From positions 1-64,000 of the IMG/VR virus record IMGVR_UViG_3300045988_113959: a stretch of 64,000 nucleotides of DNA; one strand, 5' to 3'. The DNA is from a virus. The notes under the pieces were generated by a model that was not told where the DNA came from, searched no databases, and worked only from the letters and a program-made list of their open reading frames with translations. The translations under genes and the position numbers were made by a program. Of this stretch, positions 40,068 through 62,200 are shown in pieces (position 1 is the first letter of the stretch; the number at the start of each line of letters is the position of its first letter).

Positions 40068-40078
40068 TTATTTAAAAT

Positions 40079-42166
40079 ATGGTTTACTCGAGAGATTAGT
40101 GGGTCCAGCTCCCAGTTAGAGATTTATACGATTCTCAGATAATGCTGGCATCTATAAACGCTGCAAGAGATATGTATCAGCGAGGTGTAGATGAAATGAA
40201 GGAATTTAAAAGGGAGTATGGAGATTTCTATAGTCCTATACAGAAAGATATGGATTGGTATACAACCAATGTTACTTAGGGTATGAGAGATACCATAGAA
40301 GACTTATATGCTAGAGGAATCGACCCACTTAGGTCTGCCGAAGGTAGAGCCATTATATCAAGGAGAATTAACAATGCTCCTATTGGGGAAATAAATAAAT
40401 TAAAGATGGCTTCTAAAACAGCTCAAGAATATCTCAAAAATAGGGGTGTTCTTGAAGCTCAAGGTAGGTATAATAAAGACTATGAAGACTTTGTCAATGG
40501 TGGTAAGACTATTGAAGATTGGGATACTCTTAGAGATGGTATTTGGACAAGACAAGCTCCATCATAGTTTATGACATTAAAAGAAGCTACAGAGAACTGG
40601 TATAATAATAGAACACCACATTCACTTACACAAAAAGAAGTTGAAGGTTTTGGCGTTAAATACGATAAAAGATATAATTATACAGGATTTACAAAGGACG
40701 ATTTACTTGGCATTGCAGCTAAAAATACTCCAGGTTGGAACGGTTCTCAAATAGCTGACTACTATAGAAATGTAGCAAAGAACTAGTTATTATCAGAAGG
40801 TATTGAAAAGCCAACCAATTAGCAAATAGAATACAGATTGTAGCAGAATGTCGCTGCCGCTAATGACGAGTATAAGATTAAACCTATAGAACAGGTTAAT
40901 CAGTATGCAATGCTCGATAAGCAACAAGCATATCAAACACAAGCTCGTAGAGAAGGCTTTGCTCACGATAGGGAAATGGCAGCATTTAATGCAGCTAAAC
41001 AGAGAGAGATGGCATATCTACAATGGAGGTTATCAAATTCTACTCCAGATGGAAATGGTAATCCTGCACTTAAGAACCAACAACAGCAACCAATTCCTCT
41101 TTCATTTACAGAATAGCTTATAGAGTCTGCAAATAGAAAGAAGACTGATAATATAGCTGGTCCAAAGAACTTCCAAGCAAATACTAAGAAGATATCAGAT
41201 TATTGGTTAGGTAAGGCTTATAGTGTATTAAGTAAAGCCGACAGTAATGGAGATGGTAAACTATCTAAGGACGAACAAGCAAACTGGAAAGTTAGATATA
41301 GTCGTTTATCTCCATATCAAAAGAAACTTTACGATAATGCGATACATCATAGAAATTGGTGGAATAAAGTTTCAGCTGAAGGTTATGGTAACGCTGCCAA
41401 AAACGGACTTATAGATAAGTTTGGTAATGTAACAAGTAGATTTACTAACGCTATGGCTTATTCTGATAAGAATACTGGTAATAATGGTTATAGTGATAAT
41501 GAAAGAAATAGAATAAACTCTAAATACTATAACAATGTATTTACAGATATCAATGAAGAAGGTAGAAAACAAATAATAAATCTTCTTACAGGAGGAAATG
41601 AAGAAAATTATGTAATAGATGAGAAAAAATCTAAGTTTGGAAAGAAACATCCTGTATTAAACTTTTCAGAAAGTGGAGTTTGGTTTGGAAATTATAGAGC
41701 GCATAATGCGTCTACTGGAAGAGATTTAACAAATGGTAGTATAAGTAAAACATTCCAAAATTTCCTCAAGAGAAACAAGGTAAAAGGCTGGGTTGTTAGT
41801 AAAAATGGAATCGGTGTAACAACTGTTCCAAATAGAGGTAAGGGTCAATCCTTGGATATTTTAGCAAATGTTTCAGTACCATATAGTGTGCTTGAAAGGT
41901 ATGCAAATTCTATAGGAGTTGGCTCTTCTAATATTCCTCAATTGATAAGGAGTTTAGGTTTAAGAATGATGAATGTTAATGGTGATACTATAGATAAGAA
42001 AGAAGATAATACGTTTGTAGAAATACCAGTATCTAAGCAGATAGATAACAATGGCGGTCAAGGTTATGGACAAGTAGACACTTCTTATGATAAGAGTTTA
42101 TTTGGCGGAAAAGAAGCCGCAGCAAGAGAAATACAAAGACAATATAAATCTTCATAGACAAGATGA
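40079..42166 (+). CDS. virion (likely ejected/cargo) protein with EF-hand-like loop (695 aa, 8 TAG)
   Basis: Frame 2 joins track ORFs 40283, 40571, 40910 and 41453. It ends at a TGA that overlaps the next ATG (ATGA at 42163). Confidence 0.65.
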
Positions 42167-45100
42167 TTAATATGAGATATAAGAGTTTTAATAATGGTAG
42201 TAAAAATAAAACTTCATATACAACTCCTAGTGCAAACGCATGGTTAGCCAGTTTTGAGCAAAATAAAGCCGCTCAAAACCAGGCTTTCTCTGCGCCTTAT
42301 AATAGTGGTATATATAAAGGAGACGCTACTTCCATTTACAATGCTCCCGCTACGTATAGTTATGTGGACAACGGAGCAAGCATAGAGCAAGATTCATGGC
42401 TCGACAAAGCAAAAAGCTTTATTGATAATTTAAATTCATCAACATTAGCTCTTACTGTTGGTATGGCTATTGGTGATGTTGGTTTTAAAAACACAGCGAG
42501 GGCGTTTACACAAAAAATGCTCGAAACTTCATCTAGTGACGATTTAGCTAAAATAGATGATTATCAGCAAGGTCTTAATGATATATAGCTCGTTGAAGAG
42601 TATAGTAAATTTCAAAATGACAAAAGTAAGCTCGAAGCACTTATGAATTACCATATAAAATCTGGTGGTAGTACGAGTGATATAGAATATCAAACACTTA
42701 AAGTTCAATATGATGAAGCTAATAAGCAAATAAAGAGTCTTGATGATTATTTTACAGGAGAAGGTAGAAATCATCAAGTTGTCAGAAAACTTATGTACAA
42801 TCTTGACAATGTATCAACTTCTGATAAAATTAAAGCAAACGCATCTTATATATTTCAAAACTTAGGTGGAAATGATAAATGGTATGATGGTCCGATTCAA
42901 TTATTAAACCTTGGTAAAAACATTCTAAATTACGGAGCTAATTATTTAGGGAAGCTTGGAAATGCTACAGGATTAACTAATAATTCATATTACAATACAG
43001 CTATAACAGAGCAAGCAATCATGAACTCTGATTCATTCTTAAATCTTTACAAGAAAAATCAAAAACAATACGACGTAAAGAAAGCTCAGGAATGGAAGAA
43101 GTATTTTAAAGATATGATTGCAGAAAAAACCGTAGAATATGAACAAGATAAATATGCTGCAAGAACTGGTAATGTAACACTTGGTTAGATGGCTAGTGCT
43201 ATTCCTGTTATAAGTATGTTATATGATGGAAGTGTGAGTAATTCTCTAAACCTAAAAAGAAATGCTTTAAAAAATAAAGATAATTGGGCTAATGGAACTA
43301 TAAAACTTTATAATCCAGAAGATATTCCAGAATCATTTAAACAAGGTGTAGATAAGTTTGGTGAAAACTGGTATGATTTTATTATACATCCCCAATATGC
43401 TGCTGTACAATCTGCATCTAGCGTTGCTATGATGAAACATACTCTTAATGCTCAAGGTGTAGATGCGTTATTAATGTTTGCTGCTAAAAAACTTCCAGTT
43501 ATAGGTTGGGCTGCAACTGGAGCATCTGTTGCTAATAGTATTAATTCTGCGGTTAAACAGCGCGAGCAAGAAACTGGAATGGAAAAGATTCAAGGTCTTG
43601 GTACAAGAGTATTCTCTGAACTTGCCGCTACAGATGAAAGAAATATAAGTAATGTTATATCTGAAATTAAAGATTATGCAAGAAGAAATAATCTTGATAC
43701 AACAGATATGACTCCTCAAGAACTTATAGAGATGGGTGTTGCTTTTAATGTACAAACAGACAACTCAGCATTTGAACAAATTAAAAAAGATGCAAGAAAG
43801 GGTATAAATAAACTTGTTAATGCGAATAACGCATTAGCTTTGATGGATTATGCTCAACAAATGCCATTCTATTCATTCGGTGGTAAAGCTTTAAATAAAT
43901 TTGCTAAAGCTGTTATTAATAGTAGAGCTAATCAAGCTATAGCTAAATTTTTAAGCCCTTCTTTACGAGCAGCATCATCTAAGCTATCACAACCAGTAAT
44001 GGAAGAACTTGTTGGCGTTCAAGATTATTTACCTACATTTAATGGTATCTTTAATGCTGCTACAGATAAAATAGCAAATAGATTTATAAAGAAAGAAGCA
44101 GCTTCTGCAGAGTAGTTTGCAAGCAATATGACAAAAGGTCTTTATACAAAGTCTTTAGGTAATTATTTAAAAAATAAAAGCAAACTTTTACTCGCAGAGG
44201 GTATTTCTGAAGGAATTGAAGAAGGTCAACAGCAGATATTACAAGATAGATACGCAAGAGGACTTTATGACGAATACGGAAAAGATGCTAATATATTAGA
44301 TATAGATGAAGTATTTGGCAATGTAGGTCTCGCTGGCGAATCTGTTCTTGCTTATTTTGGTTTAAGACCATTTGATAAGAACTTGAATACTGATGAGATT
44401 AGGAAGGCTATGAATATAGGTTTTGCTTCATCTATTATACAAAGTGGAGTTCAGCATTCGCTTAAAAATGTATTACCATCTAAGTTTAGAAATGGTGATA
44501 GTTTTAGAGATTTTGTACAACAAGTAAAATCAGACAGAACTGTAACAAGCCTTATAGGTAAACATTTTGAAGACCTTGACGACCAGTCTCATCTTGAATT
44601 ATTTTATAATGCATTTAGAAGCGGAATTACTGATAAACAGCTTATAACATCTATGAATAGACTTAAGGGTTAGCTTGATGAAAGTAATCCCTTTATAAGA
44701 AAGTCTAATATGGATGCTGATATATAGTTAATGCAAAACGCATATAATTTATATAACAATAAAGAAATCAGAAAGACTTTAAACGAAGCTGGTATTGAAA
44801 CTTTTAGTGATAAATATAAAAACTTCGTAATAACTGGAGCTAAGAGAATAACAGACTATCAGATGAGTAATGATGCTGCTAATCAAAATGCAATAGAAGT
44901 TGATAGGCTTAATCATGAAAGAGCTAATATTGTAGATATGCTATTTGAAGGAACTTTGTCAGATGATGAAATAAATAAGATTCAAAGTGAAAATCCTAAG
45001 CTTGCGAAAACAATTAAAAAACTTAGTGATGAATATGAATCTACTAAAGAGTCTATAGATAAGAAGCGTAAAGATGATTTTAATTTATTTACCAAAGAAC

Positions 45101-48100
45101 TAAGTAACTTTGACTCGTTTAAAAACAATAAACATATAAGAGAGTATGTTTCGCAAAATCATGCAAGTGGTAGGCTTGGAAAAGCTGCATTTGATGAAGA
45201 TATAGCAAGTGTGTTTGGAAATGCTTCTTTAAAAAATTCAGCTATAGAATACGCATTTAGACAAGCTCATAAAGAGCAATTTAATAACTTGTCTAAAAAT
45301 TTCAACGATGCTATAAAAAATAAGTTTATAGTTAAAGCTTTACGTTCTAAACTTAATGCCGAAGTAATATATTCTTCTTTAATTGATAGATTTAAAAACG
45401 ATAAAGATTTTTCTGAAGAGATAAGAAGCATTGCTGAGGATTATGCTTTTAACAACAACGTATCTAAAGCTGAATTTATTAAAGAAAGAATAGCCGTATT
45501 AAATTCTCGTAGACAACTTAATAATATAAGAAAGATATTATCATTATCTGAATCAAGGTTGGAATTTCTTAATTTATATCAAATAGAGACTGGTCTTGAT
45601 ATAGATACAAGTAAGCTTGGAACTCTTATATCAGAACTTAAGAGAATGGAGAAAGGTCTTGTTGATGAACAAAATAGAGTTCTTGGGAATAAGAAAGGTA
45701 AAATAAACTATACATATGATGATTTGTTTGAAGACGACATTGAGGAGTATGAAATAGATAATGATAATTCTTATGACTAGGCTGTTACAAGATACTTTAT
45801 AAATAAAGCTTCTTTGAAATCTCAAAAGATATTAGCTCAAATGTATTCTCTTGCTGGTAATAAAGATATATCTATAAATCCAATATCTCTTAATGAAGCT
45901 ATAAATGGTACAAATAGAACTGACGTGTTTAATGAAGAACTCACCCAGTTTGAGAAGATGAATGCTAGGCTTAATTCTAGGAATGAATTAGAATCTGAAC
46001 ATGTTGATGTGTAGGTTACTCGTAAAGATATGAGCGAAGTTTCTAAAAAAGCTCAATTAAAACAGCTTCTTAAAGACCTTGAAGACCAAGAACATAGATA
46101 TAGAATAGCTAATAGGTTATGGAAAAATGCACCAGTTACAGAAGTAGATTTAAATGATGCTACAGACGGTGATGAAGAAGCTTAGGATAAAGTTGATTCA
46201 GCAGTGGATAAAATCATCAATGCTGCAGATAGCGAAAAATCTAATACTACTGAAGGTGAAGTGCCTGCAAGTAGTGAGCTTATAACTCCTGATACGTTAC
46301 ACCAAGAAGACGAGCTTGCTGAAAGATATATGAATAGAAATAAAACTCGTGATGATAGAAAGCGTAAACAAAAAGAAAAAGCTCTGAATGGTAAAAAGGA
46401 TACAGATGATGTTGAAGATAATAATTCTAAAGAAGAACTTAAAGAAAGCCCAAAAGACCCATTAAGCTCTCTTATTAATGGAATGATGGCTGATGATTCT
46501 GATGTTAACGAAGAGGGTGATGGTGGTGAAACCGTTCCAAGTAAAGATACACCAGCTAAAAAATAGCCAGAAAACAAACCAGCCAAATCTACAAGTACTC
46601 GAGATGAAGATGATATTGATAGTATTATAGATAATGGTGATAAAACAGATTCTGAACTTGATTCTAAAACTGAAAAACAGAAAGATGATTATTTAGAAGA
46701 AGAATTTCCAGATGATGCTGATTATGAAGAACCTGAAGAATATATTGAAGATGATTCTGAAACTCAAGAAGCTGCTGTTGAATTAGAGTTAGAAGACGAT
46801 GATGTTCAATAGACTGCGTCTGAAGTTGAAGCTGAGGTATTAAACGATGAAATTGATATTCAAGAAGCTGCGGCAGAAGCCGAGGCTGAATCTTTTGAAT
46901 ATATAGAAGATGCTAGTGATATTGATACAGAAGATTATAGTACAACCGGAAGGGTAAAATACAAAGATAAAGTTCTATCTAAGAAGCAGTCTAAACAATT
47001 AATGGACGAGCTTATAATATTAGGTAGGGCTGAGATTGATGGATTTGACCAAAAAGAACTTCCAGATGGAACTGTGCAAGATGTTGAGATGTATAGAATG
47101 AATGTTACAGATGATACTATAGGTAGTTTTATAAGCAATACATTCTTCTATCAACCAAATCCAGACTTATTTGAAGAAACTGGAGAATATGAATTAATGA
47201 AGCTTACTGTTAATGGTGAGCAAGTTAAGCTAAATAAACCTTTAGCATCTGGCAAGCAATTGTCTGAAAAGCTTTCTCAAGAAGGTTGGTTACAGTCTAC
47301 AAAAAAATACTATATAGTAACTCAATCTCAACAGTCCGAGAAGAATACTATAGGCGACGTTAGAGACTCAATGACCGTATGTCTTATACTTGAAGATGAC
47401 AATAATACATACGCTACTACTCTTAGAGCTCTTGGATTAATGGTTAGTGATATACCTGGAGACCCAAATGGTAAATATACAGTATCTCAATAGAAGAATT
47501 TAATTGACAGATTAATAACAAAAGGTGTTGATTTTTCTAAGATATTAAAGCCAGGGCAAAGATTACCAAATAGTTATAGCAGAAGGGCTAAGTTAGCCAT
47601 AGATGCTATAAACGCAATGGAAATGAAGCTTGCTAAATCTTGGTGGATTAGTCAGGGTAGAAAAGAAAGTGATTTTGAAAACTGGTGGTTACATAAACCA
47701 TTAAAGAAAGATTATCACAAATCTGAATATGAGAATGAATACAAGCAAGATTTAACAACTTGGAGGAATGTACATACTCAATTTAAAATACTTGCAAGAA
47801 AACATTATCAAAAACCTGGTAAGAAAATGCTTACCGAAGAAGCTATAAAAGACCAAATAAATGGTCTTAGAGAGCTTAGAAATAGTATAATTGATAAGTA
47901 TTTAGAAAAAAGAATTATCAAACAAAATGGTAAAGAAGTTGTTGAATATATATTCCCAGAACATGTTAGAGATGATGTAACTCCATCTTATGTTCAACAA
48001 AGTAATGGTGTTATAGATAATGTTAAAGAGAAGAGAGTTGTTGGTAATAATGGTTCAGCTACAATAGATTAGATACAAACTCAAATAAACGACGGAAGTA

Positions 48101-51100
48101 TTCTTCTTGGATATGGTAAAGGTGCATTAGCAGAGACTTCTGAACAATTTGCAATATATGGTTTATTATCAAAAGATTCTGGAAAGATTTATGATGGTAA
48201 AGGGTTGTCTGGTAAGCTATATTGGCTTGTTAAAGGATTATCTGGAACAGATGCACTTGTACCAATAATGCTACATGAGGAAAGATTCGATACTCAGGAT
48301 TTTATAGATAAGGAAGGACATAGAAAAACTAAGTTCATAGGTTCTAAAGATGATGTTAAACTCACTCTATCATATGACGCTATACAAGGAAAACTCATAA
48401 ATACAAGTAATGGTAAAATTATTCCATCTACTGCTGAGATTTTGATGTATATGCTATGCGGAAGATTTAATTTTGGAACTAATAATAGGACTGAAATTGA
48501 TAATATTGTAGAGTTCTTTATACATAGCGGTGAGAAAACACTATTGAGAAATCAACCAAAAACTGGCGGAGACCCTATGAACTTCTTAGCAAGAAAGCAA
48601 TTATTCTTTGGAGATGTTGATAATAGTGGTATAAATAAGTTACATATAGGTATAGGCGACCCTCTCAACGGTTATCAAGAAAAGATATATACCGAAGATG
48701 AAATATTTGAAGATTCAGAACAAGGAGAAGCTAATAGAAGAGAAATAGTTCATGCTATAGCGACTCAAATGCACTGGAATACTGATATAGATTTTATAAA
48801 CTCATCTATAAAAGTTGGAGATTCTACATCATTAATTGGTAGATTTATACAAAATATGATTAGTGAGTATTTCTCCGGTAAAGGTTTAACTCCAGAACAG
48901 CAGCTTGAAAAAACTATAGATATTCTTGATAATAAACAACTATCATTTAAGGTTAGTGATTTCTTTGAACTTAAGAATGGTAAATTTGCACCAAAGTCAA
49001 ACGTTAGTGTGTTAGCTTGGCTTCTTTCTAATAAAAAAGTAAGTACAGATGTATCTAAAAAGATATTTAAAGACCCATTCGTATTTGCTGGTGGTGTTAA
49101 TTCAGAAGCTCCAGCTCCGTCTAATGGAAAACCGCAATCAACTTCAAAAGTTGAACTTGTTGGTAGTAATAATGATGTTGTTAGTACTGGTTTTAGTGTA
49201 ATAAATCCCGATTTATTCAATAAGGCTAATGAAGCTGCTGGTAGTAAAGTAGAAGATGGTAGTAAAGTGGTAGAGCTTCGTAAAAACATGGGATTCAAAT
49301 CTCCTAAAACACAAGAAGAAAGAGAAGCTTACAGAAAACAACTTGAAGAGGCTCATATAAGTGCTAATAAGAATGGAGGTTTGCAAGATGCTATATATGT
49401 AACAGACCCATATTTAAATACAGACTTTAATAAGTTTAATGTAGGTAATATGGATAAGCTTATAGACCATCTAAACTCTCTTGTAAAAGACTTCTTGGAT
49501 AAGTATAATAAAGAATACGGAACTTCATATAAAATTGAAGACATTGGCGGTATAACAAAAAACACAGCTCTTACAACTATAAATAATATTAGAAATAACA
49601 ACGGTTACCTTAGATTGGATTTGTTTAAAAACGGTAAGGGTAAACTTCAGTTTACAACAAGTACAATGAAAACTTGGAGCCAACCAGTAACTGGTGTATA
49701 TTCTAAACATAAATCAAATGGTAAGTTTGATAAAGATAAGGCTGTTAAGTGGCTTGAAAAACATCTAGGTATAAACAGATATAATATTATAGTTAGAAAC
49801 GGCGTAATGAGAAGTACCGATAACGAATAGGTATTTGGTGTTACGCAGGTGTCTTTAGATAGAATAGCTGGCGAGCTTACAGGTCTTATACAACTTTCAA
49901 CAAATGGTGGTGAAGGTGTTACATATCACGAGGCTTGGCACTATGTAAACTTGTTGCTTAATGATGCTAACACACGTTCTAAAATATGGGATTCATACGT
50001 TAAGACTCATAAAGAACTTAATAGAGATGGCGTAACAAATCTTATGATAGAAGAAGCTCTTGCCGATGAGTTTATGAACTATATAGTTATGCAGCAAGAT
50101 AATTCTCTACCAGGAATGGTTAAGAAGTTGTTTAATAACATACTTGACTTTGTTGTAACATCTCGTAGAAAGTCTGCGTATAGAGCTTTATTTAGATCTA
50201 TAAAAAGAGGTGAGTTTGGTAATACCGAACACCTTGATAAACAATCAGCTAAAGAGTTTGCTGAAAAGTATAAATATGGTGTAAACAAAATAGATTATTC
50301 AGTTCCTGGATTTTCTAATAAGGATTTAAATAATCTTAAGTATATAGATAATCATACAGATTTATTTGCTGTATTAGACGCCGTTGTTAGAAAAGTTATA
50401 TCTGACTTTAATATAGACTCTATAGATAAGATTAAATAGATTTCTGGTGCGTACGATAAGAATCAACAGCTTGATTTTAGTATGCTTCTTGACAAGGTTC
50501 AAGATATGGCTGACGAAGCTGATTCAGAACAAATGTCATCAATGCTTCAAGATATACATGATAACCCAGAATTTTTAAAGCGTAAGCTTGTAGAAACTTT
50601 TGCTGATTTTGGAATAAATGTTAAGATTAGAAGAGAAGAGGATGTTGATGAAGCTGAAGATGCAGAAGAAAGAAATGATTTTGAGTTTGATAAGTTTGAT
50701 TTATCTATAAGTAAAAAAGACAATGCGGCTTTAAGAGTTAAGATGTTTATGTATTCAATACCTAAATACACAAGAGTTTTTAATGAAGATGGTTCAGTAG
50801 ATATACAGATGGTACAAGATGGCTTTGGCTCGTCTTTATTCTGGGATTTCAACGAAGCTTGGACAAAGATTCTTAAAGATTTATGGCAAGCCTCATCTCT
50901 TGACGATGTATATACTGAAGACGTTGTTAAAGATGGAGTTGTTAAATATAATAAGGGTGAATATAAATACAATTCTATATACGGAATGGTTTCTCGTAGA
51001 GCAGAATCGGATGTGTTTTATTACGCACTCAAAGAAAAACTTAACCAATTACTTGCTAATAAAAATCCAGATGTTTAGCTTAGAAGCCAATTGTTTGCTA

Positions 51101-54100
51101 CCATAAATTCAAGCAAACCAAATGTATCTTATATAAAAATATCAGACCCAAAAGATTGGAATAATAACGATGACGAATTTATTGATGATACAGATATAGA
51201 TTCAAGTTTATATCAATTCTCATTAATATCTGATAAACTTAGAGAGTGGAGAATAAATGATGATTCACTTGTATCAACTGAAAGAAATATTGCAAGACAG
51301 TGGTCTAAGAATCTATTTACAAACGGTTTGACAAAGATTGATGGTAATAATGGTATAGTTGTTAGCGATTCTTTTGTTAGTAGCAGGCAAAGAGAACTTG
51401 ATAAAGTTATAAGAAAACTATCTAAACTTCTTGTTAAAAAGAATAAAAGATATATATCAGGCGAATCAACGGTACTATCTAAACTTAATAATACTGGTGA
51501 AGAATCTGCAATAAAGAATGATATTGTTAAATTCTTAAACTCTATAGGCATAGATGCTGATAGACAGTCTATAGATATTTATATATCTATGAACTCCGAT
51601 AATGAGAATGTATCTGGATACGAACAAGCCAAAATACTTCATAGACTTCTTAGTAGCACAGATAAAGCTAAAGGAGGTATAAGTGGTATTATAAATGAAA
51701 CATTATCATCTTCTGTGGGTGAAAATATAATTCAAGCTGATAGTGTTAATGGTTTTGAAAAACAGTTAGATCAAGTATATAACAACTATAACAAAGATTC
51801 ATTTATAGCACAACTTGCTGTATCTTGGGACGCTGTACATCCAGACCCATCAGACTTCTCTGTAAAAGGACCAAGTGGAGAAATGTATTATCCTATAGGA
51901 TAGAATAACTATATATCAAGTAGGGTTAGAAATCTAAACGATGCACAGTCTGAAACTTCTAAAAATCTTAGAAGAGACCCTTATTCAAGACACTCTTTAT
52001 TGCTTGATGCTGCTGACAATGTTAACGAAGATGATTCTAAAACACAGCTTAGGATAAATGCATTTGTCGGTCTTAAAGATGGTGATAGATTAAAAGGTAG
52101 TGATTATTTTGGAATAACAGCTATGGAAGATTATCTTTCAAAGATGTACATGACAGAGAACGACCATCTTATATTACCAACTATGGCTGATAAGAAAACT
52201 TGGTACTCTATAACATCACCAAATCTAAAATTAAGACATGATGTTGTAATATCAGAAATACCAAATAAACTTATTAGAAGTGCTGCTGTTGATGTTTATA
52301 CTGAGAATTTTAAAACTATAAAGAAATTTAAGAGTGATAATAGTATTGTCGAAGTACCAATTAATGAGTTAGATGATTACGAATTAAAGTCTTATGTAAT
52401 GGATTGGTATAGAAGTCTCCCATCTAATAGTTATAATAGAGAAGATATTGAAAGCAGAGCTATTAACCAAATGTATAATGGTTCTAATTTTAATGGCTTT
52501 AGTGTAGATATAAATGGAAATATTATTCCTAAATATTCTAATGATACATTAAATATACTTGCTGGTTATTTTATAGATGAACTAGATGCTCTTATACAGT
52601 ACTATTCTGAAGATAATATAAAATATCTTACTGAAAATCCAAATAAACTTCAAGAAAATTTCCATGGTGTTATAAAGGATGGTAGAATGGACTTTTCTGG
52701 TAATGGTGGTAAATTTAGGTATTTTTACGATATAGTGCCAGAATATATAAATGGGTACAATGTAGAACATAATCTAAACCTAAACCAAATTCTACAGGCA
52801 ATATTTGAAGCTCAGAAAAAGCTTGAAACACCTGGATTTAAGGTTACAGAAGATGACAATTCAGTTATGAATGGTTATAATGTATCACAATTAAGAGCTT
52901 TGCGTTCAGATAAGTCTGAATTAGATGGATTTGAACTTGTTAGAGATTATTTAAAAAAGTTGAGAGAATATGCTGTAGAAGAGGAGAATCTTGGCATTAA
53001 TAAATATTCAAAGGATATTTTAAATAGTGTAAACAACTTTATATATAGAGGTGTTACTAATGAGCTTGAGCTGTTATCTGAGAACGGACCATTGCAAATG
53101 GTAAAGAAAGATAAAAATGGCAGATTTGTACCTACAAATATACCGCAACAATTCTTTAATCCTTATGTTGAAGCTTTATCTAAGACTAAATTATTCTCAG
53201 GCAACGATTTATACGATAACTATTATATTCAAAATAGTGCACTCGTATCTCTTATAAGTAATCATTTTGTAAATAGTATAATTTCAACTGTAGAATTTGA
53301 AAAAGTATTCTCTGGAGACCCTGCTCAATATAAGAATAAAGGTAACAAGAAAGCTCCTTTTGTTAGTACAACATTATCTATTTCTAATGAAAATAATAAC
53401 ATTAGCATCGATGTTGACGTTGACAACCTAGATGATATGCACTCTGATAAAATCAAACGTCTTGGAAGTACATTATCTCCAGGAGAAGAGATTAGAACTC
53501 AGTATAATAAAGATGAAATAGAAAAGCTAAACATACCAAGTCATTCTAAATACACAACACTTGATGTTGAAGATATTAAAACACCATCATTATTCTACGA
53601 CGAAGTAAAACAAAAATTCTTAACTTAGCTTGTTGTAGATTATGTTAGAACTGGTGTTATAAAAGAACAATTTGATAACTTTATATCACATATAGCTGGC
53701 ATTCTTTATAAGAAAGCTAAAGATAGGTCTAATGGCGAAAACATAAAGCCAAAAAGAGTTTCTAAATCACAGGCTATAGATTTATTATATTCTGACAAAA
53801 CTTACTTTGATATTTTATATAATAGTATTCCTAAAGATATAAAAGAAAGGATAGAATCTCAACTTGACCAATAGATGGACCCATATAAGAAAATAAATGT
53901 ATGTGATGCTCAGGTTATAATAAGACCAGATTTGTATAGAAGAGTTAGAATTGGTCTCGGACAGTGGTCTGTAGTTCCAGATGAAACTGGATATTCTGAT
54001 GAAGATGCGTTTAATATAATCGAAAACGGATATTATATAAACGAAGATGGTGAACGTGTAAACATTGGAGAGCAAGATTGGGCTAAAGATAAAAATCTCG

Positions 54101-57100
54101 CATCAAAGATTCAAAAGTTACAGCTATTCCCATTAAAGATGTCTTATTTTGATAATTATTCTCACAAGGAGGGTGATAATTTTAGAAATAGAACATTACT
54201 TAATAAGATGGCTATATTTCCATTGTTTAAATTTAACATGTCTACAAACACGGGTTCTAAACTATATCTAAGAATGAATAGATATGGTGATTGGATAGAT
54301 ATGATTACTTTTAAATCAGCTGTTAAGGTTGGTGCTGTTCAAAAAGGATTACAGTTAATATCTAATGATTCTAATGTTGAAGATGGCGTTTCTAAACTAT
54401 CTTCTTTAGTTGATAGAGATAGTGATACTGCTATAGATTATAAGACCGGAATTGTTATTAATAAAGGTTCTGAAAATTCACTTTCTGTAAAAGTTCAAAG
54501 TTTAGATAATCTTAGAATGCAGTTAAATACAAAAGCTCACGAAACAGACGAACGTATGATTGGTAAGCAGATGTTTAAGCTGGCATTCTCAAACTTAGTT
54601 GATGATGAGAAGTATGGTCATGGTGATAAAAGAAGAACTGGAAAGTCTATTAGAAAGGATATTATGACCACAATTAATCTACTTACATAGTTTGGTGTAA
54701 TATCTGTAAAAGATGAGTTTTTTAACGAAGATGGAGATGTTGATAATTCTTCTGTATCAAGTTTTGTTTAGAGAGTTTGTAGTAGCAATGGTTTAGGCGC
54801 ATCTGCTTTACAAATACTTAGTAAAGGTGGAACTATATCAAGCTTAATGTCAAGAAGAGTATTTGAGAATAGTGTATCTAAGTTTATAAATAAACTTGTT
54901 GTAGATATAAACTCAAAAGGTGGTACTGCTATTCAGCAATCTGTACTTGGATTCTCTGCATTTAAGAAAGGTGATAATTTACTTGGACTTGAACAAGCTA
55001 AAGGTAGAATACCAAAATCAATACAATTGAATAATGGAAACGAATTAAAGTGGAAGACTAATAAAAACTACACCCAAGTGATATTAAGCGAAAACTTCTT
55101 TAGGGATATAGTTCCAGCTAATATTCAACAAATGGGATATGAAGCTATAAGAGCTTGGTTGTTTGAAAAGAATATAATTGGAGAAAATGCAAATCCACTT
55201 GGTGTTGGCTATCGTATTCCTACACAGGGTCAATCGTCAATGTTTGCGCCACAAGTTGTTGATATTCTTCCAAAACAGTCTGGAGATGTTATAATAGTAC
55301 CAAGAGAGTTTACTGGTCAGACTGGTTCCGACTTCGACGTTGATAAGATATTCTTAGCTCTTAAATACTTTAACAAATCAGGTTCTGAACACGATATAGA
55401 TTATGATTTAATAGAGTCTATTTATAATGGCGAATCTAGTAATATGTAGGTCGCTGTTAAAATTATATCTAAAATGTCTGGAAGAAGTGAAGAGGATGTC
55501 GCTAAAGCTATAGAAAGTCAAGACGATGAGTCTATTAATTCTATTGTTGATGATTTAGATATAGAAAAAGCTGTAAAAAATCACCTTATAAATACTTATA
55601 TAGACATTCTTACAGATGATAAAAACTTCTCACTTGCAAGAGGTTCTATTGACGTTGTAACAAATATATTGCAAGACTAGCTTGTTAAGAAGTATCTAAA
55701 AAATACATCTAATGGCTATTCTGTTGGAGGTTATCAACTTAGTCCGTATTTCCAAACTATGAGAAAACTTGAGTTTAGTTCTGGTAAGCAAGGTATTGGA
55801 CCATTTGCTCTTAATGTTACAAACTTATCTCTTACACAGTACACTAGATTAACATTTGACTATGGTGAAAATCCATATGAGTTTGGAAGTCTTGATGCTA
55901 TATATGGAGAAGATGGAATGCGTATTGCTGACTGGCTATCTGCAATGGTTAATGCTAATGTGGACGTTGCTAAAGACCCATATGTGTTTGCTTTAAATGT
56001 AAACCAAGCTACATATAGTCATACTAACTTCTTAATTAGAGCTGGAAAGGGTCTTGGTGTATTTACATTCCTAACACAACCATCTATAAAAGAGTTTGCT
56101 AATATAAAAAACAACTCTGGTAATGTATATGGTTTTAACTTAGAAGGTGATAAGAGTGAAGGTGATTATACTGGCAAGTATGAAAAGAGTATATATAATC
56201 AAATATACTACGGTATTATAAAACAACTTAAAGAGTGTTTATTAGCTGTTGACGATAAGGATTCTCAAAAGTAGATTAGGAGTTTTATAAACTATGTAGA
56301 TTCTTTAATTATAGACAAAAATCACAAAGATATCACACCAGAGGAAAGAAAGTCTATAAAAAGACCATTTTCTAAGAAGTAGATGTTTGATGTTGAACTT
56401 GGAAAGAAATCGTTAGAATTTAGTAATAGTAAACCAGGAGTTAACAAAGCTTCATCGCTTGCGTTCCAAGCTTGTGCACTAAACTCATTTAAAGATGTTG
56501 GTGTTTATGCTAAAAAATTATCAGATTTAGTTAAAGTATCTCAGATTGATACTAAGAAGTTTGGTAATTCTATAGCTCAGCAAATAAACTTTTCAAATCG
56601 TATAGATGTATTTAAAACAACAGATGGATTTACAATAAACAGAAAAGATTTTAAATCTTGGGTTTAGCAGCTCGCTAAAGAAAGAGAGGCTAAGACTGGG
56701 TAGAAAGTATCTTTAGGGAGATTTGAATCTACCGTAGCTATAAATGAATATTTTAAGAACACATTCTTAGGTAGTAAATTTAAAGAGTCTAAAAAGCTAA
56801 CAAGATTATTACTTAAGAATCAATCGTTTACAGCAACAAGACTATTTGATAATATATTCAGAAACATAATGGGTTAGACATTAGGCTTTAAAGATGCAGA
56901 TGAAAATACTGTTAGTTACAAACCTACTTCAAAAGATGAGGTTGTAAACACAATATCTGATTCTATTGATAATGTCTTAAGGTTCTTATCGTTATTTGGC
57001 GTTGGTTCAAGAATTATTAAATCTGCATCATTTAAAGAAAGAAATCCAGACGCTATAGACTTTACAATGGGTGGTGATATAAATCTTGTTAAAGATAAAA

Positions 57101-59199
57101 TTAAAACTATATTGTTTGGTAATAAAGAAGTTGATAATATCTTTTTAAGATTTAACAAACTTAAGAGTGATATGCAAGCTAATCCTTAGAATTACCCAGG
57201 TCTTATAGACCCAGTTACACTTGGTGTTCAGAATGAGCTTTTGAATTATCTAAATCCAATATCAGCTAATGAAAAATCACCTGTTGGTAGATTTGTGTTA
57301 TCTACAAATCAAATGAAAGTTAATCAAAGTAAGAAATAGATTTTATCAAGCGCATTTAGTCAACTGTTATCATATCAAGATGAAAATGTTAGACAACTTG
57401 CTGAAGATTTAGCTTTCTATGCATATTATTCTTCTTATGACCAGAATAGAGTTGACGCATTCTTTGATTTAGTTCCTGTTGAATACAGAGCTCAATATGA
57501 TAAAGCTCTTATGTTTGCTCTACACGATATGAATCGTAGTGAAAATAAACTTGTAAATACAAACAATGATTTATTAAGTTTATATAACTATGATGTTAAT
57601 AATATTGAAGCTGATAGAGCAGAAAATATAATCGATATTATATCAAGAAACTATTGGTACGATGATAATATAGTTAAAACTCACTATATAAAAGAAGATG
57701 AAAGTGTTTTTTTATTAGGAGGAGGTTATGATGTTCTTGGAGAGCCAGTAATTGTTCAAAATGAAGATAATAAGGTTTATCCTAACTTTATAGTTACTAG
57801 CAATTCTGATAGCTCTTATATTAAAATTAAGAGTGGAAAGAATTATATGTTGTATAAAAATATAGGTTCTGTTATTAAATATAGAGATGGTAATATCGTT
57901 GGTATTCAATATGTTTACGCTGCTACAAACAAGGCTGGAATAAAACAAGGTCAAGCAAATATTCTTGAGATGTATGGGTCTTTTGGTGTTGGTTCCATAT
58001 TTGAAAATAATAAACTTGATGAAGAGTTCTCTCATGATAAAGTTGTATCTGATGTAGAAAAGCTTGTAAAAGATAGTAATGAGGCTAATAGCGGTTATGG
58101 TTTTGAATTATCATGGTATAAGCCTGTAATAAAACAATCTACATCATAGTATAAAGATAACTTTATTCAGACTCAAATTGCTAATCCCGAACGTGTTATA
58201 AAAGTTGGTCCAGTTAAGTTAAAGGCTGGTCAAAAAGCTCCAGATAGAGTTGGTATAAACAAAGCTGATGTAGTTATAAATATAGTAAATGATTCTGTTA
58301 AAGAATCAGATTATTATAATACAATAAAGAGTGAAGATGCTAAATAGAAAACCGTTACTGTTAATATGAGTGAAAACCCGTCTAAGTTTATAAATAAGAT
58401 TTTAACCTTAATAAATAAGGATAATGCTATTATACACTTTACAACTCCAATATTTGATTATATATTAGAAAGAGGAGTTAGTGATGATAGAATCAGTAAA
58501 TATATTGAGAGTGAAATTGAAAGACTTGAGAATGTTTTTGATACACAAGATGTGAAAGAAAAAGAAGTGCTTCTTAAACAAAATAGAGAGATGCTTGAAA
58601 GCTTTAAAGCTCGTAGAGTTTTAGCTTTGCAAGACCTACATTCTTTTATTAGAGAAATATTAAACCAACTGTCTATCAATGACGTTAATATAAATAGAAT
58701 ATCAACATCTTCTACTAAAAAAGGAAACTCTAAAAGATATGCTTTAGCAAAATCTGTAGCCGTATTGTCTAATTATATGCAATATACGTTCTCTGGTAAG
58801 AATATAATATACTGTAATAATAATCTTACATCTGATAATAAAGCATTTAGAAATTATATAAAAGAACTTCAGTATGAGGTTGACGATAGTGAAAATTTAT
58901 TAGAAGATGCAGCTATAAATGAGTATATTGATATAAATCAAACATTAGCTAAAGATGTAATGAACTATGACGACAAATCATCTAATATAGTAGAAAGGAC
59001 ATTAAAAGAAAATACTGGCGAAGATTCTAAAACTTAGACAGAAAGTAAAACAGATGATGACGCTAGCAATAATATATCTAGTTTTGATTCGCTAAGTATA
59101 CTTTCTAATGCTATAGACTATAGCTCTGATGATTTCTTGGACGAAGTTTAGGAAGATTTAGAGAATGATTTAGAAGATAATAATCACGAAAAATGTTAA
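42163..59199 (+). CDS. giant virion protein (5678 codons, about 33 TAG) containing a two-barrel RNA polymerase module and an HExxH motif
   Basis: Frame 1 has no TAA or TGA from ATG 42163 to TAA TAA at 59197-59202, joining 21 track ORFs. GYRIPTQGQSS (55210-) and GSDFDVD (DxDxD at 55330-55344) are spaced as in the beta-prime NRAPTLH...NADFDGD motif. HEAWH is at 49927-49941. Confidence 0.8.
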
Positions 59200-59205
59200 T
59201 AATAT

Positions 59206-62200
59206 ATGTTTTGTCCATATTATAAAAATAAAGAAGTGTTTGATGGCTTTAATAGTATGATTCAAGCATTTGGTGGACAACCTATGACGGAAGATGAATT
59301 TAAGTCGGCTAATCTAAGAAATTAGAGAGTCGGCTTAGATTTATATGCTATGGAAGCAGCTTATAGGTTGTATGATAAAAACGGAGGATTGTTTTTAGAT
59401 AAAGTTCCAAACAGTCAATCTAAAGAGAATCCAAACGGTATAGATTCCAGATTATTCTCTGATATTCTTGCTAAGAATAATGGTGATTATCTTAAGTCTA
59501 TAAAAGAAAAAGCTCAATATTATTCTAAAAGGTATATTAATACGTACGGAGATTGGCTTTCAAATAAACCAAATAAAGATTCTTATTTAGATATCAATCA
59601 CGAACCAATAATGAATAATGAAAGAGCTTCGATTGCTCTATTTAGTGCTAATTAGACTTTTGGTGATGGTATTGGTAGGCATGACCCAGTAACAAGGTTA
59701 TTTGCAGGAGAAGTTGTGAGTTCTACATATTTGTTACAATATTTCCTAGATACTAATACGTTTTCTTTAAAGAATAAAATATTAGCCAAAGTTTTATCTA
59801 AGCACGATATTCCAGTAAGGATTAATAATAGTATAAATGCAGACGCTGACAGTGTAATTGTTAAAGGTTATAGATATATACAGTTTAACGGTAATGTATT
59901 AAGAAATTATTCAAATAGATATGTAGCGAATACATTAATACACGAGATTGTGCATCAATTAACAACTGGTGCATTACGTAATCCACAAACTAAAGAAGAA
60001 AAGGATTTATAGAGAAATGTGAAAAAGTTTTATAACTATATAAACAAACACTTTAAAGAGTTTTCTTCTATATTTAGCGACGTGGATGGTGCATTGTACG
60101 CTATGGAAGATGAGTTTGAATTTGTTGCAGAATTAGCATCAGATGAATATACTAGAGAGCAAGTTTATAAAGTAGCAAAATTAATAGACAATAATAAAAA
60201 TATTGTTATACGAACACTTAATAATATAATAAACGCAATATCAAAAATACTTGTTGGTAGAAGTGTAGTAGGTAGTGTTAAAGAGTTTGATAAGCTTAGT
60301 AAGTAGGTTGAAGATTTTTTAATGTCAAGAAATGTAATTGTTAATAAAGAACCTTCAAATTAGGAAGTTATAAATTATTATGATGATATAATGAAAAATG
60401 CATCTGATTATGATATGGCTGGTGAAAACATTATTCATCTTAATAAAGCTGTAGACTATATAGATAGACATTATAAAAAATCATCTAACAATAGTGATAC
60501 TTATTATCAAAATATACAAAATTCACTATCTGTTAGACTTAATGCAATTAGAACATCAAGTTTAGACGCATCGAAGAAAGCTAATCTAATCAACTCAACA
60601 CAATCTTAGATAGACTTGTTTACAATATCAACTATATCTCAATATGATGCCATTACATCGTTTTTGAGACAGGTTGTACCACAATTAATACAAGATAAAC
60701 AAGAAATCTTCGATATTTATTACAAGCATAAAAGTTTTACATCTAATGATTATATGTTTCAAATGCATAGCAATATAAAAATGTATGACTCAATCGTTGA
60801 ACAACTTCAACTCATGCTTAGTGAAGATGGTAACATTCAACAAATTGTAGACTTATATAACAAGGGAAAAATTGACAAAGATAAAATATCAGTAGATGAT
60901 TTACTAAATGTTAAACAAGATGTTGATAATTTGTCATCAGTAACTACAGCTGCTAAGGCTGTATTAGACCACATGTTAGATTCTATAAGCTACGATAAAA
61001 TGAAGGATGTATCAGAATCTGTTGGTGCGAGAGAAGGTGTTAAATATGCAGACTCTTTTGTAATGCATGAGATTATCAATGATGATATAAGTGTTAGACA
61101 GTTGTATGCTGGAGCGTCAGATTCATCAACAAATGAGGCTATTAGAGCAATATCTCATATGGTAAATAAAGCTATAGAGAATGCTGATAATGACGCAATA
61201 CCAGTTGGTTTAGCTATGCTTAATGCTGTTAAGAATCTTAAGCGTGGTGAGTCTCAATTATAGTTATATGAGTTAGATGAAAATGGTCAAACTACAGGTT
61301 ATCTTGTAAGAAATTTAAATTATGGTAAATTCTGGAAAAATTACGATAATGCATTGAAAGATATAAATAGAGCCGTTACTAAAAAATTTAGTAAAGATGG
61401 TCTTATATTAAAAGATGATAATAGATTTCCACCAGATTAGAATGATGATGCAAGAATTATGTGGAATAATATGAGAAATAAATGGCTTGCAGAAAATTCT
61501 CATAGAAAATATACTCCAGAGTATTATAAAATATAGTCAGAGGTTCCATATTCTGCAAGAAAAGCATTAGACCAATATGATTCTCAAATACAGTCGTTAT
61601 TATCTAAACAGGGTGTTATAGATGAGAATGGTATAAAACATTTCGATAAGCTAACAGATGAAGAATGGGACCGTTTAAAGTCAGCTTGGAGAGACAAAGC
61701 AATGCTGTATGAGGATTATACTATATTTGGTGTTTTAAAGACCGGAGAAGAGCTTAAAATAGCTCGCTCACTACAAGACTTCAGAAAGAAATTAAACGAC
61801 TATAGAGAGAAGAAAACAGGTAAGAAATTCGACCCTGTTTATGACCAAAAAGGTTGGCAAAAACAATTTGATAAGATAGTTGAAGAATGTGGCGGTAAAA
61901 AAGCGTTCAACAAGTGGATGCAAGATGGTTACAGTTCTAAGTTTGACGATTAGAAATTCCTTAAGTGGGCAAGAAGAAACGCAAGACTTCAGTTTAAGAA
62001 AGATGAAGATGGTAATGCAATAGTATTTGAGAAAATAAAAGAAGCTATGCGTGGAATTTCAATTGACTTTGGAAAAGAATACGATGAGCTTAAAGAAAAG
62101 AGACAAGCATTACTTAGACCGCATAAAGACCAATATGGTGAAATTGATGGTAATAATATACCAGAATCAGTAAGGAATATATTAATGGATATAAAATCTT

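What the first reader, a model, noticed from the sequence alone, without database searches (positions are those of the whole stretch)
42163..59199. A single 17-kb reading frame (5678 codons) fuses what are normally several large virion proteins
An ATGA-coupled ATG at 42163 opens a frame with no TAA or TGA until a tandem TAA TAA at 59197-59202. About 33 TAGs are the only interruptions. The product would combine four parts. The first is an N-terminal Q/N/S-rich region. The second is an extremely acidic low-complexity block (about 46180-46990). The third is an HExxH module (49927). The fourth is an RNA-polymerase-like module (about 52000-57000). crAss-like phages are known to package large RNAP-containing proteins, usually as separate genes. 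A fusion this large, apparently in one polypeptide, invites the question of whether it is proteolytically processed or partly terminated at some TAGs to give nested products.
Basis: partly seen in the sequence, partly recalled or inferred. Interest (0 to 1): 0.8.

Follow-up and report, generated by a model that had tools for sequence, protein, structure and literature searches.

The report
Giant crAss-phage zincin–RNA polymerase gene
The 17-kb reading frame is real, but it is the usual giant virion gene of one family of crAss-like gut and oral phages (Suoliviridae): a protease-motif protein joined to the packaged RNA polymerase, read with TAG as glutamine, and already annotated in reference genomes.

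Summary
From ATG 42163 to TAA TAA 59197-59202 there are 5,678 codons with 33 in-frame TAG and no TAA or TGA; about 377 would be expected by chance.

The frame encodes a 644-kDa late protein of a TAG→Gln-recoded phage related to Bohxovirus (Suoliviridae). It has three parts:
- aa 1-~2733: equivalent to the 2,310-aa 'RNA-polymerase subunit' of Kehishuvirus, a ΦcrAss001 relative. It contains an acidic block and ends in a conserved HExxH…E module.
- aa ~2734-~5300: the virion RNA polymerase, homologous to phi14:2 gp66 (PDB 6VR4, E=7e-23), with DFDVD aligned to the catalytic DFDID.
- A tail of about 300 aa.

The third large protein of the block stays separate as the next ORF.

This two-gene fusion is typical of the family. 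RefSeq already annotates single CDSs of 4,328-5,443 aa in all four Suoliviridae subfamilies. A 98-kb relative has a colinear 5,663-aa ORF at 55% identity, and protein catalogues hold homologues of up to 6,282 aa. Published work already describes fused 'polyproteins', RNAP genes up to ~6,000 aa and TAG→Gln recoding.

Cleavage and nested products remain untested. I found no support for termination at the TAGs.

Verdict: a new member of a known kind, of low interest.

The parts
42163..59199 (+). Giant late gene of 5,678 codons and 33 TAG (read as Gln). The product is 643.8 kDa with pI 5.3. The stop is TAA at 59197-59199, followed by a second TAA at 59200-59202.
   Evidence: It is colinear with JABZZT010000001.1 (5,663 aa, 55% identity over 5,565 columns). 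It is also colinear with cr7_1 gp32 (aa 418-5308 against 392-5105).
42163..50361 (+). N-terminal part, aa 1-2733 (309 kDa). It is equivalent to the 2,310-aa 'RNA-polymerase subunit' of Kehishuvirus. By size this matches ΦcrAss001 gp47 (262.5 kDa). By position it matches p-crAssphage gp45.
   Evidence: A profile of 8 Suoliviridae giants hits the Kehishuvirus subunit at 2098-2287, which maps to window aa 2523-2727 (E=5.7e-27), and weakly at 545-949, which maps to aa 942-1420. blastp gives E=1.7e-11. The gp47 size comes from PMC10172136. Homology to p-crAssphage gp45 or phi14:2 gp078 was not detected.
46063..46992 (+). Acidic low-complexity block, aa 1301-1610. It is 31% D+E with pI 4.1. The sequence is poorly conserved, but the composition and position are kept in relatives.
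   Evidence: Equivalent D/E maxima lie about 900-1,100 aa upstream of the HExxH in JABZZT, Dulem virus 42, cr7_1 and cr125_1.
49729..50343 (+). Gluzincin-like module, aa 2523-2727. HEAWH lies at 49927-49941 and the invariant Glu (E2631, in EEALADEF) at 50053-50055. This is the best-conserved stretch of the protein (87% identity to JABZZT over aa 2501-2600).
   Evidence: H, E, H and the downstream E, A and F are invariant in 8 homologues and nearly invariant in 12 metagenomic fragments. A profile search of PDB gives a weak match to Pro-Pro endopeptidase/Zmp1, with HExxH and the E aligned (E=0.04). The fold test failed.
50362..58053 (+). Virion RNA polymerase part, aa 2734-5297. It is homologous to phi14:2 gp66 (GenBank gp077) and to the Kehishuvirus 'putative RNA polymerase'.
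   Evidence: phmmer against PDB hits 6VR4 with E=7e-23. The profile maps gp077 121-1812 to window aa 2734-4886 (E=1.7e-69). It maps the Kehishuvirus RNAP 733-2334 to aa 3454-5297 (E=9.9e-44). tblastn finds 137 phage records.
55330..55344 (+). DFDVD (aa 4390-4394), the predicted catalytic Mg-binding motif of the RNAP.
   Evidence: It aligns with DFDID of 6VR4 inside 'TGSDFDvDKif'. There is one DFDxD at the homologous place in each of 7 giants, plus one extra chance DFDSD in cr109_1.
58288..59196 (+). Lineage-specific C-terminal tail, aa 5376-5678. The end is acidic and poorly conserved.
   Evidence: It lies beyond the matches to phi14:2 and Kehishuvirus RNAPs. Identity to JABZZT falls to 31% with gaps at the end.
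59206..64000 (+). Next gene, at least 1,598 aa with 17 TAG, running off the window. It is the third large protein of the block, homologous to cr7_1 gp33 and phi14:2 gp076. It has its own HExxH (HEIVH, aa 246) and an EFxxE motif.
   Evidence: blastp against cr7_1 gp33 gives E=0, and against phi14:2 gp076 E=7e-6. The HExxH aligns with HEIMH of phi14:2 gp076.
37890..42166 (+). Two upstream late genes (37890-40067, 725 aa; 40079-42166, 695 aa). They are homologues of cr7_1 gp30 and gp31. By position they correspond to the two smaller cargo proteins of ΦcrAss001.
   Evidence: blastp gives E=4e-45 and 1e-48. Cargo proteins gp45 and gp46 are described in PMC10172136; the equivalence rests on position only.

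Best explanation
**What it is**
This is the main gene of the virion-packaged 'transcription block' of a Suoliviridae crAss-like phage. The phage is close to Bohxovirus by its capsid protein. It reads TAG as glutamine in its late genes.

**What it encodes**
One 5,678-codon late gene makes a 644-kDa protein with three parts:
- An N-terminal part of about 2,730 aa, equivalent to the separate 2,310-aa 'RNA-polymerase subunit' of ΦcrAss001-type phages. It carries an acidic low-complexity block and ends in a conserved HExxH…E (gluzincin-like) module.
- The two-barrel virion RNA polymerase of crAss-like phages (phi14:2 gp66 type), with a DFDVD catalytic motif.
- A variable acidic tail.

**How it most likely works**
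These steps are inferred from work on phi14:2 and ΦcrAss001, not shown here. The protein is made late, when TAG is decoded. It is stored as cargo in the capsid together with the product of the next gene. It is pushed through the tail, partly unfolded, ahead of the DNA. It then refolds in the host so that the polymerase transcribes the early genes, which are free of TAG.

**Processing**
I think it more likely than not that the chain is cut into zincin-protein and polymerase parts, possibly by its own HExxH module or that of the next gene. This step is inference only.
For: **Frame and recoding**
- The frame and its stop-codon pattern are confirmed.
- TAG recoding restores long ORFs across the whole + strand late block. 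All genes there end in TAA or TGA.
- Of 142 TAGs in the 55%-identical JABZZT orthologue, 48 align with window Gln and 8 with window TAG. Of the 33 window TAGs, 13 align with Gln or TAG there.
- In late proteins at least 74% identical to Bohxovirus, 44 of 56 Bohxovirus TAGs align with window TAG, CAA or CAG.
- Proteomic proof of TAG→Gln in crAss-like phages is published (PMC9523058).

**Modules**
- RNAP: 6VR4 at E=7e-23 with the catalytic motif aligned. Profile E=1.7e-69.
- Zincin motif: invariant across homologues and the most conserved stretch of the protein.

**The fusion is a family trait**
- RefSeq single CDSs in four subfamilies.
- Dulem virus 42 has a 5,634-codon ORF and JABZZT a 5,663-aa ORF.
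- Catalogue homologues reach 6,282 aa.

**Literature**
- Virion packaging, ejection and early transcription are described in bioRxiv 10.1101/2020.03.07.982082, PMC7886860 and PMC10172136.
- One search also says that fused polyproteins are 'likely cleaved' and that a zincin-like protease might activate the RNAP.
Against: - No Suoliviridae phage has been cultured or its virion analysed (PMC10136315). Packaging, ejection and cleavage are therefore extrapolated from Steigviridae.
- The junction region (aa 2700-2900) is well conserved (57-74% identity to JABZZT). It is not a variable linker of the kind often seen at cleavage sites.
- The zincin fold could not be confirmed. Both AlphaFold models had pLDDT near 50, Foldseek gave nothing, and the best profile match to a known zincin was E=0.04.
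- No TAG-suppressor tRNA lies in the 64-kb window.
- Pfam and PHROGs recognise none of the protein.
Confidence: 0.8

Rival explanations
1. Nested or separate products. Some TAGs still terminate, or internal starts are used. The locus would then yield several independent virion proteins, for example a zincin protein ending at TAG 50437 (aa 2759) and a separately initiated polymerase, rather than one chain.
For: - One TAG (aa 2759) lies about 25 residues after the mapped junction of the two parts.
- In other crAss families the parts are separate genes.
- No suppressor tRNA was found in the window.
Against: - With 33 TAGs (one per 172 aa), a TAG within 30 residues of any given point is expected about 30% of the time.
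- That TAG is R, Q and S in JABZZT, Dulem virus 42 and cr7_1.
- TAGs align with Gln codons in relatives throughout the protein.
- Relatives carry 142-148 TAGs in the same frame. These would leave no full-length polymerase if TAG terminated appreciably.
- There is no excess of promoter-like or terminator-like sites inside the ORF.
Confidence: 0.05
2. One uncleaved 644-kDa chain. The protein would be packaged, ejected and active as a single polypeptide. The HExxH module would act on host targets such as the cell wall rather than on the protein itself.
For: - The junction is conserved rather than linker-like.
- The fusion has been kept in all four Suoliviridae subfamilies.
- The literature offers peptidoglycan digestion as an alternative role for the zincin.
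Against: - Homologous parts work as separate proteins in phi14:2 and ΦcrAss001.
- The authors of the phi14:2 study consider cleavage of the fusions likely.
- There are no direct data either way.
Confidence: 0.3
3. Artefact. The long frame would result from misassembly, or would be a decaying pseudogene whose TAGs are true stops.
For: None beyond the 33 TAGs under the standard code.
Against: - The frame is colinear end to end with an independent contig at 55% amino-acid identity, and with five RefSeq genomes.
- No TAA/TGA occurs where about 377 are expected.
- The catalytic motifs are conserved.
Confidence: 0.01

Closest known systems
Giant single CDS of Suoliviridae reference genomes: cr7_1 gp32 (YP_010112776.1, 5,443 aa), cr118_1 gp14 (4,946 aa), cr125_1 gp021 (4,502 aa), cr10_1 gp32 (4,460 aa), cr109_1 gp53 (4,328 aa)
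   Same: - Same gene order: two ~600-700-aa genes, then the giant, then a 1,400-1,950-aa gene.
- One HExxH lies 1,500-1,800 aa upstream of one homologous DFDxD.
- TAG is the only in-frame stop (counted in cr7_1 and cr125_1).
- The alignment is colinear.
   Different: - The window protein is the longest of this set.
- It is only 26-39% identical to cr7_1 gp32.
- It uses TAG more sparingly: 33 against 148 in cr7_1.
- RefSeq names for these proteins ('exonuclease V', 'DprA-like', 'nuclear pore complex protein-like') are uninformative.
Cellulophaga phage phi14:2 gp66 virion RNA polymerase (PDB 6VR4; GenBank gp077, 2,180 aa)
   Same: It is homologous over gp66 residues 121-1812, and the catalytic DFDxD aligns. 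It is the only member of this group with solved structure and shown function: a packaged enzyme that transcribes early genes.
   Different: In phi14:2 it is a stand-alone gene between two other large virion genes. Here it is the C-terminal half of a fusion.
ΦcrAss001 / Kehishuvirus RNA polymerase-associated cargo proteins (gp47 262.5 kDa, gp50 276.9 kDa, gp49 154.5 kDa)
   Same: - The C-terminal HExxH module of the 2,310-aa Kehishuvirus protein matches window aa 2523-2727.
- The 2,412-aa Kehishuvirus protein carrying DFDVD matches aa 3454-5297.
- The ΦcrAss001 proteins were detected in virions by mass spectrometry.
   Different: There are three separate genes. The HExxH protein is encoded on the opposite strand from the other two.
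p-crAssphage gp45 ('RNAP associated protein fused to zincin protease', 1,957 aa) and gp44 ('RNAP catalytic subunit fused to unknown RNAP subunit', 4,070 aa)
   Same: The block and order are the same. An HExxH lies near the C-terminus of the protein encoded just upstream of the RNAP, and there is a DFDVD motif.
   Different: The fusion partner is the other way round. There the RNAP is fused to the downstream protein and the zincin protein is separate. Sequence homology of gp45 to the window N-part was not detectable here.
Other giant virion RNAPs: N4-like vRNAP (~3,500 aa) and the Thermus phage P23-45 tape-measure-fused RNAP (5,002 aa)
   Same: The logic is the same: a very large virion-carried polymerase is ejected to start transcription. 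In P23-45 a two-barrel RNAP is fused to another virion protein (abstracts).
   Different: These are unrelated lineages and architectures. N4 vRNAP is a T7-like single-subunit enzyme (own knowledge). No sequence similarity to either was seen here.

Membership tests
crAss-like virion RNA polymerase (phi14:2 gp66 type, two-barrel RNAP) | Significant sequence similarity to gp66 across its catalytic core | tested here: met
   phmmer against PDB hits 6VR4 at E=7e-23. A Suoliviridae profile hits gp077 at E=1.7e-69, covering residues 121-1812.
crAss-like virion RNA polymerase (phi14:2 gp66 type, two-barrel RNAP) | DxDxD metal-binding motif at the homologous position | tested here: met
   DFDVD at aa 4390-4394 aligns with DFDID of 6VR4. 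There is one homologous DFDxD in each of 7 giants.
crAss-like virion RNA polymerase (phi14:2 gp66 type, two-barrel RNAP) | Two double-psi beta-barrel domains in one polypeptide | not tested
   No structure model of the RNAP part was made. This is inferred only from the alignment to gp66.
crAss-like virion RNA polymerase (phi14:2 gp66 type, two-barrel RNAP) | Present in the virion and transcribes early genes | not testable with these tools
   Shown for phi14:2 and ΦcrAss001 only. No Suoliviridae phage has been cultured.
Suoliviridae giant zincin-RNAP fusion gene | HExxH module and DFDxD module in one uninterrupted frame, colinear with family members | tested here: met
.
Suoliviridae giant zincin-RNAP fusion gene | Conserved neighbourhood: two mid-sized genes upstream and a gp33-like 1,400-1,950-aa gene downstream | tested here: met
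   blastp of the window flanking ORFs against cr7_1 gp30, gp31 and gp33.
Suoliviridae giant zincin-RNAP fusion gene | Phage belongs to Suoliviridae | tested here: met
   The major capsid protein is 93.8% identical to Bohxovirus (Suoliviridae; Oafivirinae) and 82% to cr7_1.
Zincin (gluzincin-like) metallopeptidase | HExxH motif plus a downstream Glu as third metal ligand, conserved in homologues | tested here: met
   HEAWH at aa 2589-2593 and E2631 are invariant in 8 homologues. They are nearly invariant in metagenomic fragments.
Zincin (gluzincin-like) metallopeptidase | Significant profile match to a known zincin family | tested here: inconclusive
   The best match is Pro-Pro endopeptidase/Zmp1 at E=0.04, with the motifs aligned. 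No Pfam family matched.
Zincin (gluzincin-like) metallopeptidase | Zincin fold: beta-sheet followed by the active-site helix and a helical subdomain | tested here: inconclusive
   The AlphaFold2 models had pLDDT 50.7 and 49.7. The strand-then-helix order fits, but Foldseek gave no match with E<=0.001.
Zincin (gluzincin-like) metallopeptidase | Proteolytic activity | not testable with these tools
   Needs biochemistry.
Genetic code 15 (TAG→Gln) late-gene recoding | In-frame TAG in conserved genes, with TAA/TGA the only terminators | tested here: met
Genetic code 15 (TAG→Gln) late-gene recoding | TAG positions correspond to Gln in homologues | tested here: met
Genetic code 15 (TAG→Gln) late-gene recoding | Phage-encoded suppressor tRNA (anticodon CUA) | tested here: inconclusive
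   The 64-kb window holds only tRNA-Met. About a third of the genome is unseen. Yutin et al. note that suppressor tRNAs are reported mainly in other crAss groups, beta and zeta.

The most novel reading that the evidence does not exclude
The chain is a self-processing polyprotein. Its own highly conserved HExxH module, or the second HExxH module in the next gene, would cut it near aa 2730-2850 inside the capsid or after ejection. This would release and activate the polymerase. Proteolysis would then be the switch that starts the infection programme in a whole family of uncultured human-associated phages.
Probability: 0.3. Interest if true: 0.45.

Novelty: new member of a known kind. Interest (0 to 1): 0.2.

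Why it matters
As a discovery it matters little. Giant zincin-RNAP fusion genes, TAG→Gln recoding of late genes and virion packaging of the polymerase are all already described for crAss-like phages.

It has some practical value:
- It shows that standard-code annotation shatters this gene into dozens of 'hypothetical proteins', as in the GenBank records of Dulem virus 42 and Bohxovirus 'endotrachealis'.
- It shows that the RefSeq names for the intact versions are misleading.
- It gives a residue-level map of the two fused parts and of both HExxH modules. This map would guide the still-missing experiment on whether and where the chain is cut.

Tried and rejected
**Searches that found nothing**
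- PHROGs and Pfam scans of the whole protein in four pieces gave no significant family.
- phmmer of aa 1601-2999 against PDB gave nothing.
- The first word-index homologue search, with a 1,209-aa query, gave only one hit because spurious candidates saturated it.
- HMMs of the zincin region did not detect p-crAssphage gp45 or phi14:2 gp078. Equivalence to those two proteins therefore rests on position and motif only.
- The hmmsearch hits are circular, because the targets were in the model, and were not used.

**Structure**
- Two AlphaFold2 jobs on the zincin module gave pLDDT near 50.
- Foldseek of the second model against PDB was uninformative.

**Other checks**
- The promoter and terminator scan inside the ORF matched chance expectation.
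- No hydrophobic segment typical of a membrane helix was found in the 5,678 aa.
- Yutin et al. 2018 and the Nature version of the phi14:2 paper could not be read, nor a 2026 preprint. The 'polyprotein' statement is therefore cited from the bioRxiv version.

**Ideas rejected**
- Introns, inteins or frameshifts inside the giant gene: the frame is continuous and colinear with its relatives.
- Assembly artefact.
- A conserved termination-prone TAG at the module junction.
Full report
**1. The observation**

The frame that opens at ATG 42163 runs for 5,678 sense codons to a tandem TAA TAA at 59197-59202. It holds exactly 33 TAG and no TAA or TGA. The ATG overlaps the TGA of the upstream ORF (40079-42166) in ATGA, and it is the first ATG after the nearest upstream in-frame TAA at 42145.

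Base composition predicts about 377 TAA/TGA in a frame of this length. The other two frames of the same span contain 272 and 851. The open frame is therefore not a chance event.

**2. TAG is a sense codon here**

- Reading TAG as sense merges the fragmented ORFs of the whole + strand block from about 9.2 kb to the window end. The result is a compact set of genes that all end in TAA or TGA. The genes at 5.7-9.1 kb carry no TAG.
- The nearest relative found is a 98,139-bp contig binned as a 'Veillonella sp.' MAG (JABZZT010000001.1). It has a colinear 5,663-aa ORF with 142 TAG, at 55% identity over 5,565 aligned columns.
- Of those 142 TAGs, 48 align with Gln and 8 with TAG in the window protein. 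Of the 33 window TAGs, 13 align with Gln or TAG in JABZZT. Gln makes up about 3% of that protein.
- In late proteins at least 74% identical to Bohxovirus, 44 of 56 Bohxovirus TAGs align with window TAG, CAA or CAG.
- This is the TAG→Gln recoding already described for delta-group crAss-like phages (Suoliviridae) (PMC7886860). It has been confirmed by metaproteomics in crAss-like phages (PMC9523058).
- No suppressor tRNA lies in the window, which holds only tRNA-Met. The rest of the genome is unseen.

**3. What phage this is**

- PHROGs identify the major head protein, portal and virion structural proteins upstream.
- The capsid protein is 93.8% identical to Bohxovirus sp. 'endotrachealis' and 82% to cr7_1. 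Both belong to Suoliviridae, subfamily Oafivirinae.
- The giant protein is far more diverged, at about 30-38% identity to Bohxovirus. This fits the reported very fast evolution of crAss RNAPs.

**4. Anatomy of the protein** (643.8 kDa, pI 5.3)

*RNA polymerase part*
- phmmer against PDB sequences finds one entry, 6VR4, the virion RNA polymerase gp66 of phi14:2. The E-value is 7e-23, and window DFDVD (aa 4390-4394, nt 55330-55344) aligns with the catalytic DFDID.
- A profile built from eight Suoliviridae giants maps gp66 (GenBank gp077) residues 121-1812 onto window aa 2734-4886 (E=1.7e-69).
- The same profile maps the Kehishuvirus 'putative RNA polymerase' residues 733-2334 onto aa 3454-5297.

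*N-terminal part*
- The same profile maps the last 200 residues of the separate 2,310-aa Kehishuvirus 'RNA-polymerase subunit' onto window aa 2523-2727 (E=5.7e-27). That protein matches ΦcrAss001 gp47 (262.5 kDa) by size.
- The protein is therefore a head-to-tail fusion of two proteins, with the junction near aa 2730. About 300 lineage-specific residues follow at the C-terminus.

*HExxH module*
- The segment holds HEAWH (aa 2589-2593) and an invariant Glu 38 residues after the second His, in EEALADEF. Both are invariant in eight homologues and nearly so in metagenomic fragments.
- It is the most conserved 100 residues of the protein, at 87% identity to JABZZT.
- A profile search of PDB gives only a weak match to Pro-Pro endopeptidase/Zmp1 (E=0.04), with the HExxH and Glu aligned.
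- Two AlphaFold2 models were of low confidence, and Foldseek found nothing.
- The zincin assignment therefore rests on motifs and on the published annotation of the orthologous block.

*Acidic block and N-terminus*
- The acidic block (aa 1301-1610, 31% D+E) is poorly conserved in sequence. It recurs at the equivalent position in the closest relatives.
- The N-terminal Q/N/S enrichment is modest.

**5. The fusion is the family norm**

| Phage (subfamily) | Length of single CDS |
|---|---|
| cr7_1 (Oafivirinae) | 5,443 aa |
| cr118_1 (Uncouvirinae) | 4,946 aa |
| cr125_1 (Uncouvirinae) | 4,502 aa |
| cr10_1 (Boorivirinae) | 4,460 aa |
| cr109_1 (Loutivirinae) | 4,328 aa |

- Each has one HExxH 1,500-1,800 aa upstream of one homologous DFDxD. 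Each is followed by a gene of 1,381-1,945 aa.
- cr7_1 and cr125_1 carry 148 and 78 in-frame TAG and no other stop.
- Dulem virus 42 has a 5,634-codon equivalent that its GenBank record splits into dozens of small CDSs.
- A full HMMER search of 1.84 billion representative proteins, using a TAG-free 585-aa piece of the N-part, returned 59 hits. About 28 of them are 3,553-6,282 aa long, with the match at the same relative position.
- The window protein is therefore neither unique nor the largest.

Other families arrange the block differently:
- Phi14:2 has three separate genes.
- Kehishuvirus has three genes on two strands.
- p-crAssphage keeps the zincin protein separate and fuses the RNAP to the downstream protein.

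The literature already covers the main points:
- RNAP genes reach 'up to ~6000 aa'.

**6. The next gene**

ORF 59206 onwards (at least 1,598 aa) is the third protein of the block. It is homologous to cr7_1 gp33 and, weakly, to phi14:2 gp076. It carries a second, different HExxH (HEIVH, aa 246) that aligns with the HEIMH of phi14:2 gp076. By gene order, gp076 is the 'gp65' to which the phi14:2 paper assigns a zincin-like domain; the equation of the two numbering systems is my inference. This phage therefore has two HExxH modules in its cargo block.

**7. Mechanism**

*Shown here:* gene structure, recoding, homology and motif conservation.

*Inferred from phi14:2 and ΦcrAss001:*
- late synthesis
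- storage as capsid cargo
- partly unfolded passage through the tail ahead of the DNA
- refolding in the host
- transcription of early genes

*Cleavage:* whether the chain is cut is unknown.
- For cleavage: the parts work separately elsewhere, and a conserved protease-like module sits at the junction.
- Against: the junction is conserved rather than linker-like.

*Nested products by termination at TAG:* this idea finds no support.
- TAG behaves as a Gln codon throughout.
- The TAG nearest the junction is not conserved.
- Relatives with about 145 TAGs could not make the polymerase if TAG terminated.

**8. Verdict**

The finding is real, correctly located and correctly sensed as a fusion. It is a divergent new member of a known, already annotated kind, and its interest is low.

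The most curious thing met on the way lies outside the window. The close relative Bohxovirus 'endotrachealis' also carries in-frame TAA at Gln positions of its late genes. This is reported under things noticed in passing.

Noticed in passing
Related genome PV686213.1 (Bohxovirus sp. 'endotrachealis'; loci L011-L013), not the window: The late genes of this close relative (capsid protein 93.8% identical) carry in-frame TAA as well as TAG. Its giant ORF is open only if both are sense: 5,401 codons with 64 TAG, 31 TAA and 0 TGA. In proteins at least 74% identical to the window's, 14 of 17 in-frame TAAs align with window CAA, CAG or TAG, including sites in the capsid and portal proteins. Yet TAA or TAA TAA also sits at gene ends where the window stops. 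ARAGORN found no CUA- or UUA-anticodon tRNA in the genome, and I found no paper on TAA reassignment in phages. It could be a TAA+TAG→Gln code, leaky TAA, or a sequence artefact.
   Followed up: partly
window 22419-24902 (+): The major head protein gene is split in two, in the same frame. Positions 22419-23426 match profile positions 3-334 and 24411-24902 match positions 336-492. The ~1 kb between them holds an HNH endonuclease ORF (23759-24277) and a sub-threshold group I intron match (24200-24355, 33.8 bits against a gathering score of 50, E=1.3e-6). This is probably the capsid-gene group I intron described for delta-group crAss-like phages.
   Followed up: partly
window 59206-64000 (+): The next giant ORF (at least 1,598 aa, 17 TAG, running off the window) has its own HExxH (HEIVH at aa 246, about nt 59941) followed by a conserved EFxxE. 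It aligns with HEIMH of phi14:2 gp076, cr7_1 gp33 and cr125_1 gp020. The cargo block therefore holds two distinct zincin-like motifs. cr118_1 and cr109_1 lack the second one.
   Followed up: partly
window 1-64000: The only tRNA in the 64 kb is tRNA-Met (7196-7268), next to an HNH endonuclease gene (7543-8454) and a dUTPase gene (8566-9114). There is no TAG-suppressor tRNA, although about 190 in-frame TAGs occur in the late block.
   Followed up: no
window 22419-23426 compared with 42163-59199, against PV686213.1: Divergence is very uneven between the window phage and Bohxovirus 'endotrachealis'. Capsid, portal and several tail genes are 82-96% identical. The giant protein and the next ORF are only 30-38% identical. 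This suggests very fast evolution or exchange of the cargo block.
   Followed up: no
Locus L010 (JABZZT010000001.1, GCA_015264475.1): The closest relative of the giant gene lies on a 98-kb contig deposited as part of a 'Veillonella sp.' MAG. It looks like a complete crAss-like phage genome mis-binned as bacterial. Its gene calls under the standard code are fragments of 45-210 aa.
   Followed up: no
RefSeq records NC_055872, NC_055892, NC_055900 and others: The orthologous giant CDSs carry misleading product names: 'exonuclease V', 'DprA-like DNA recombination-mediator protein', 'nuclear pore complex protein-like protein' and 'DNA helicase'.
   Followed up: no
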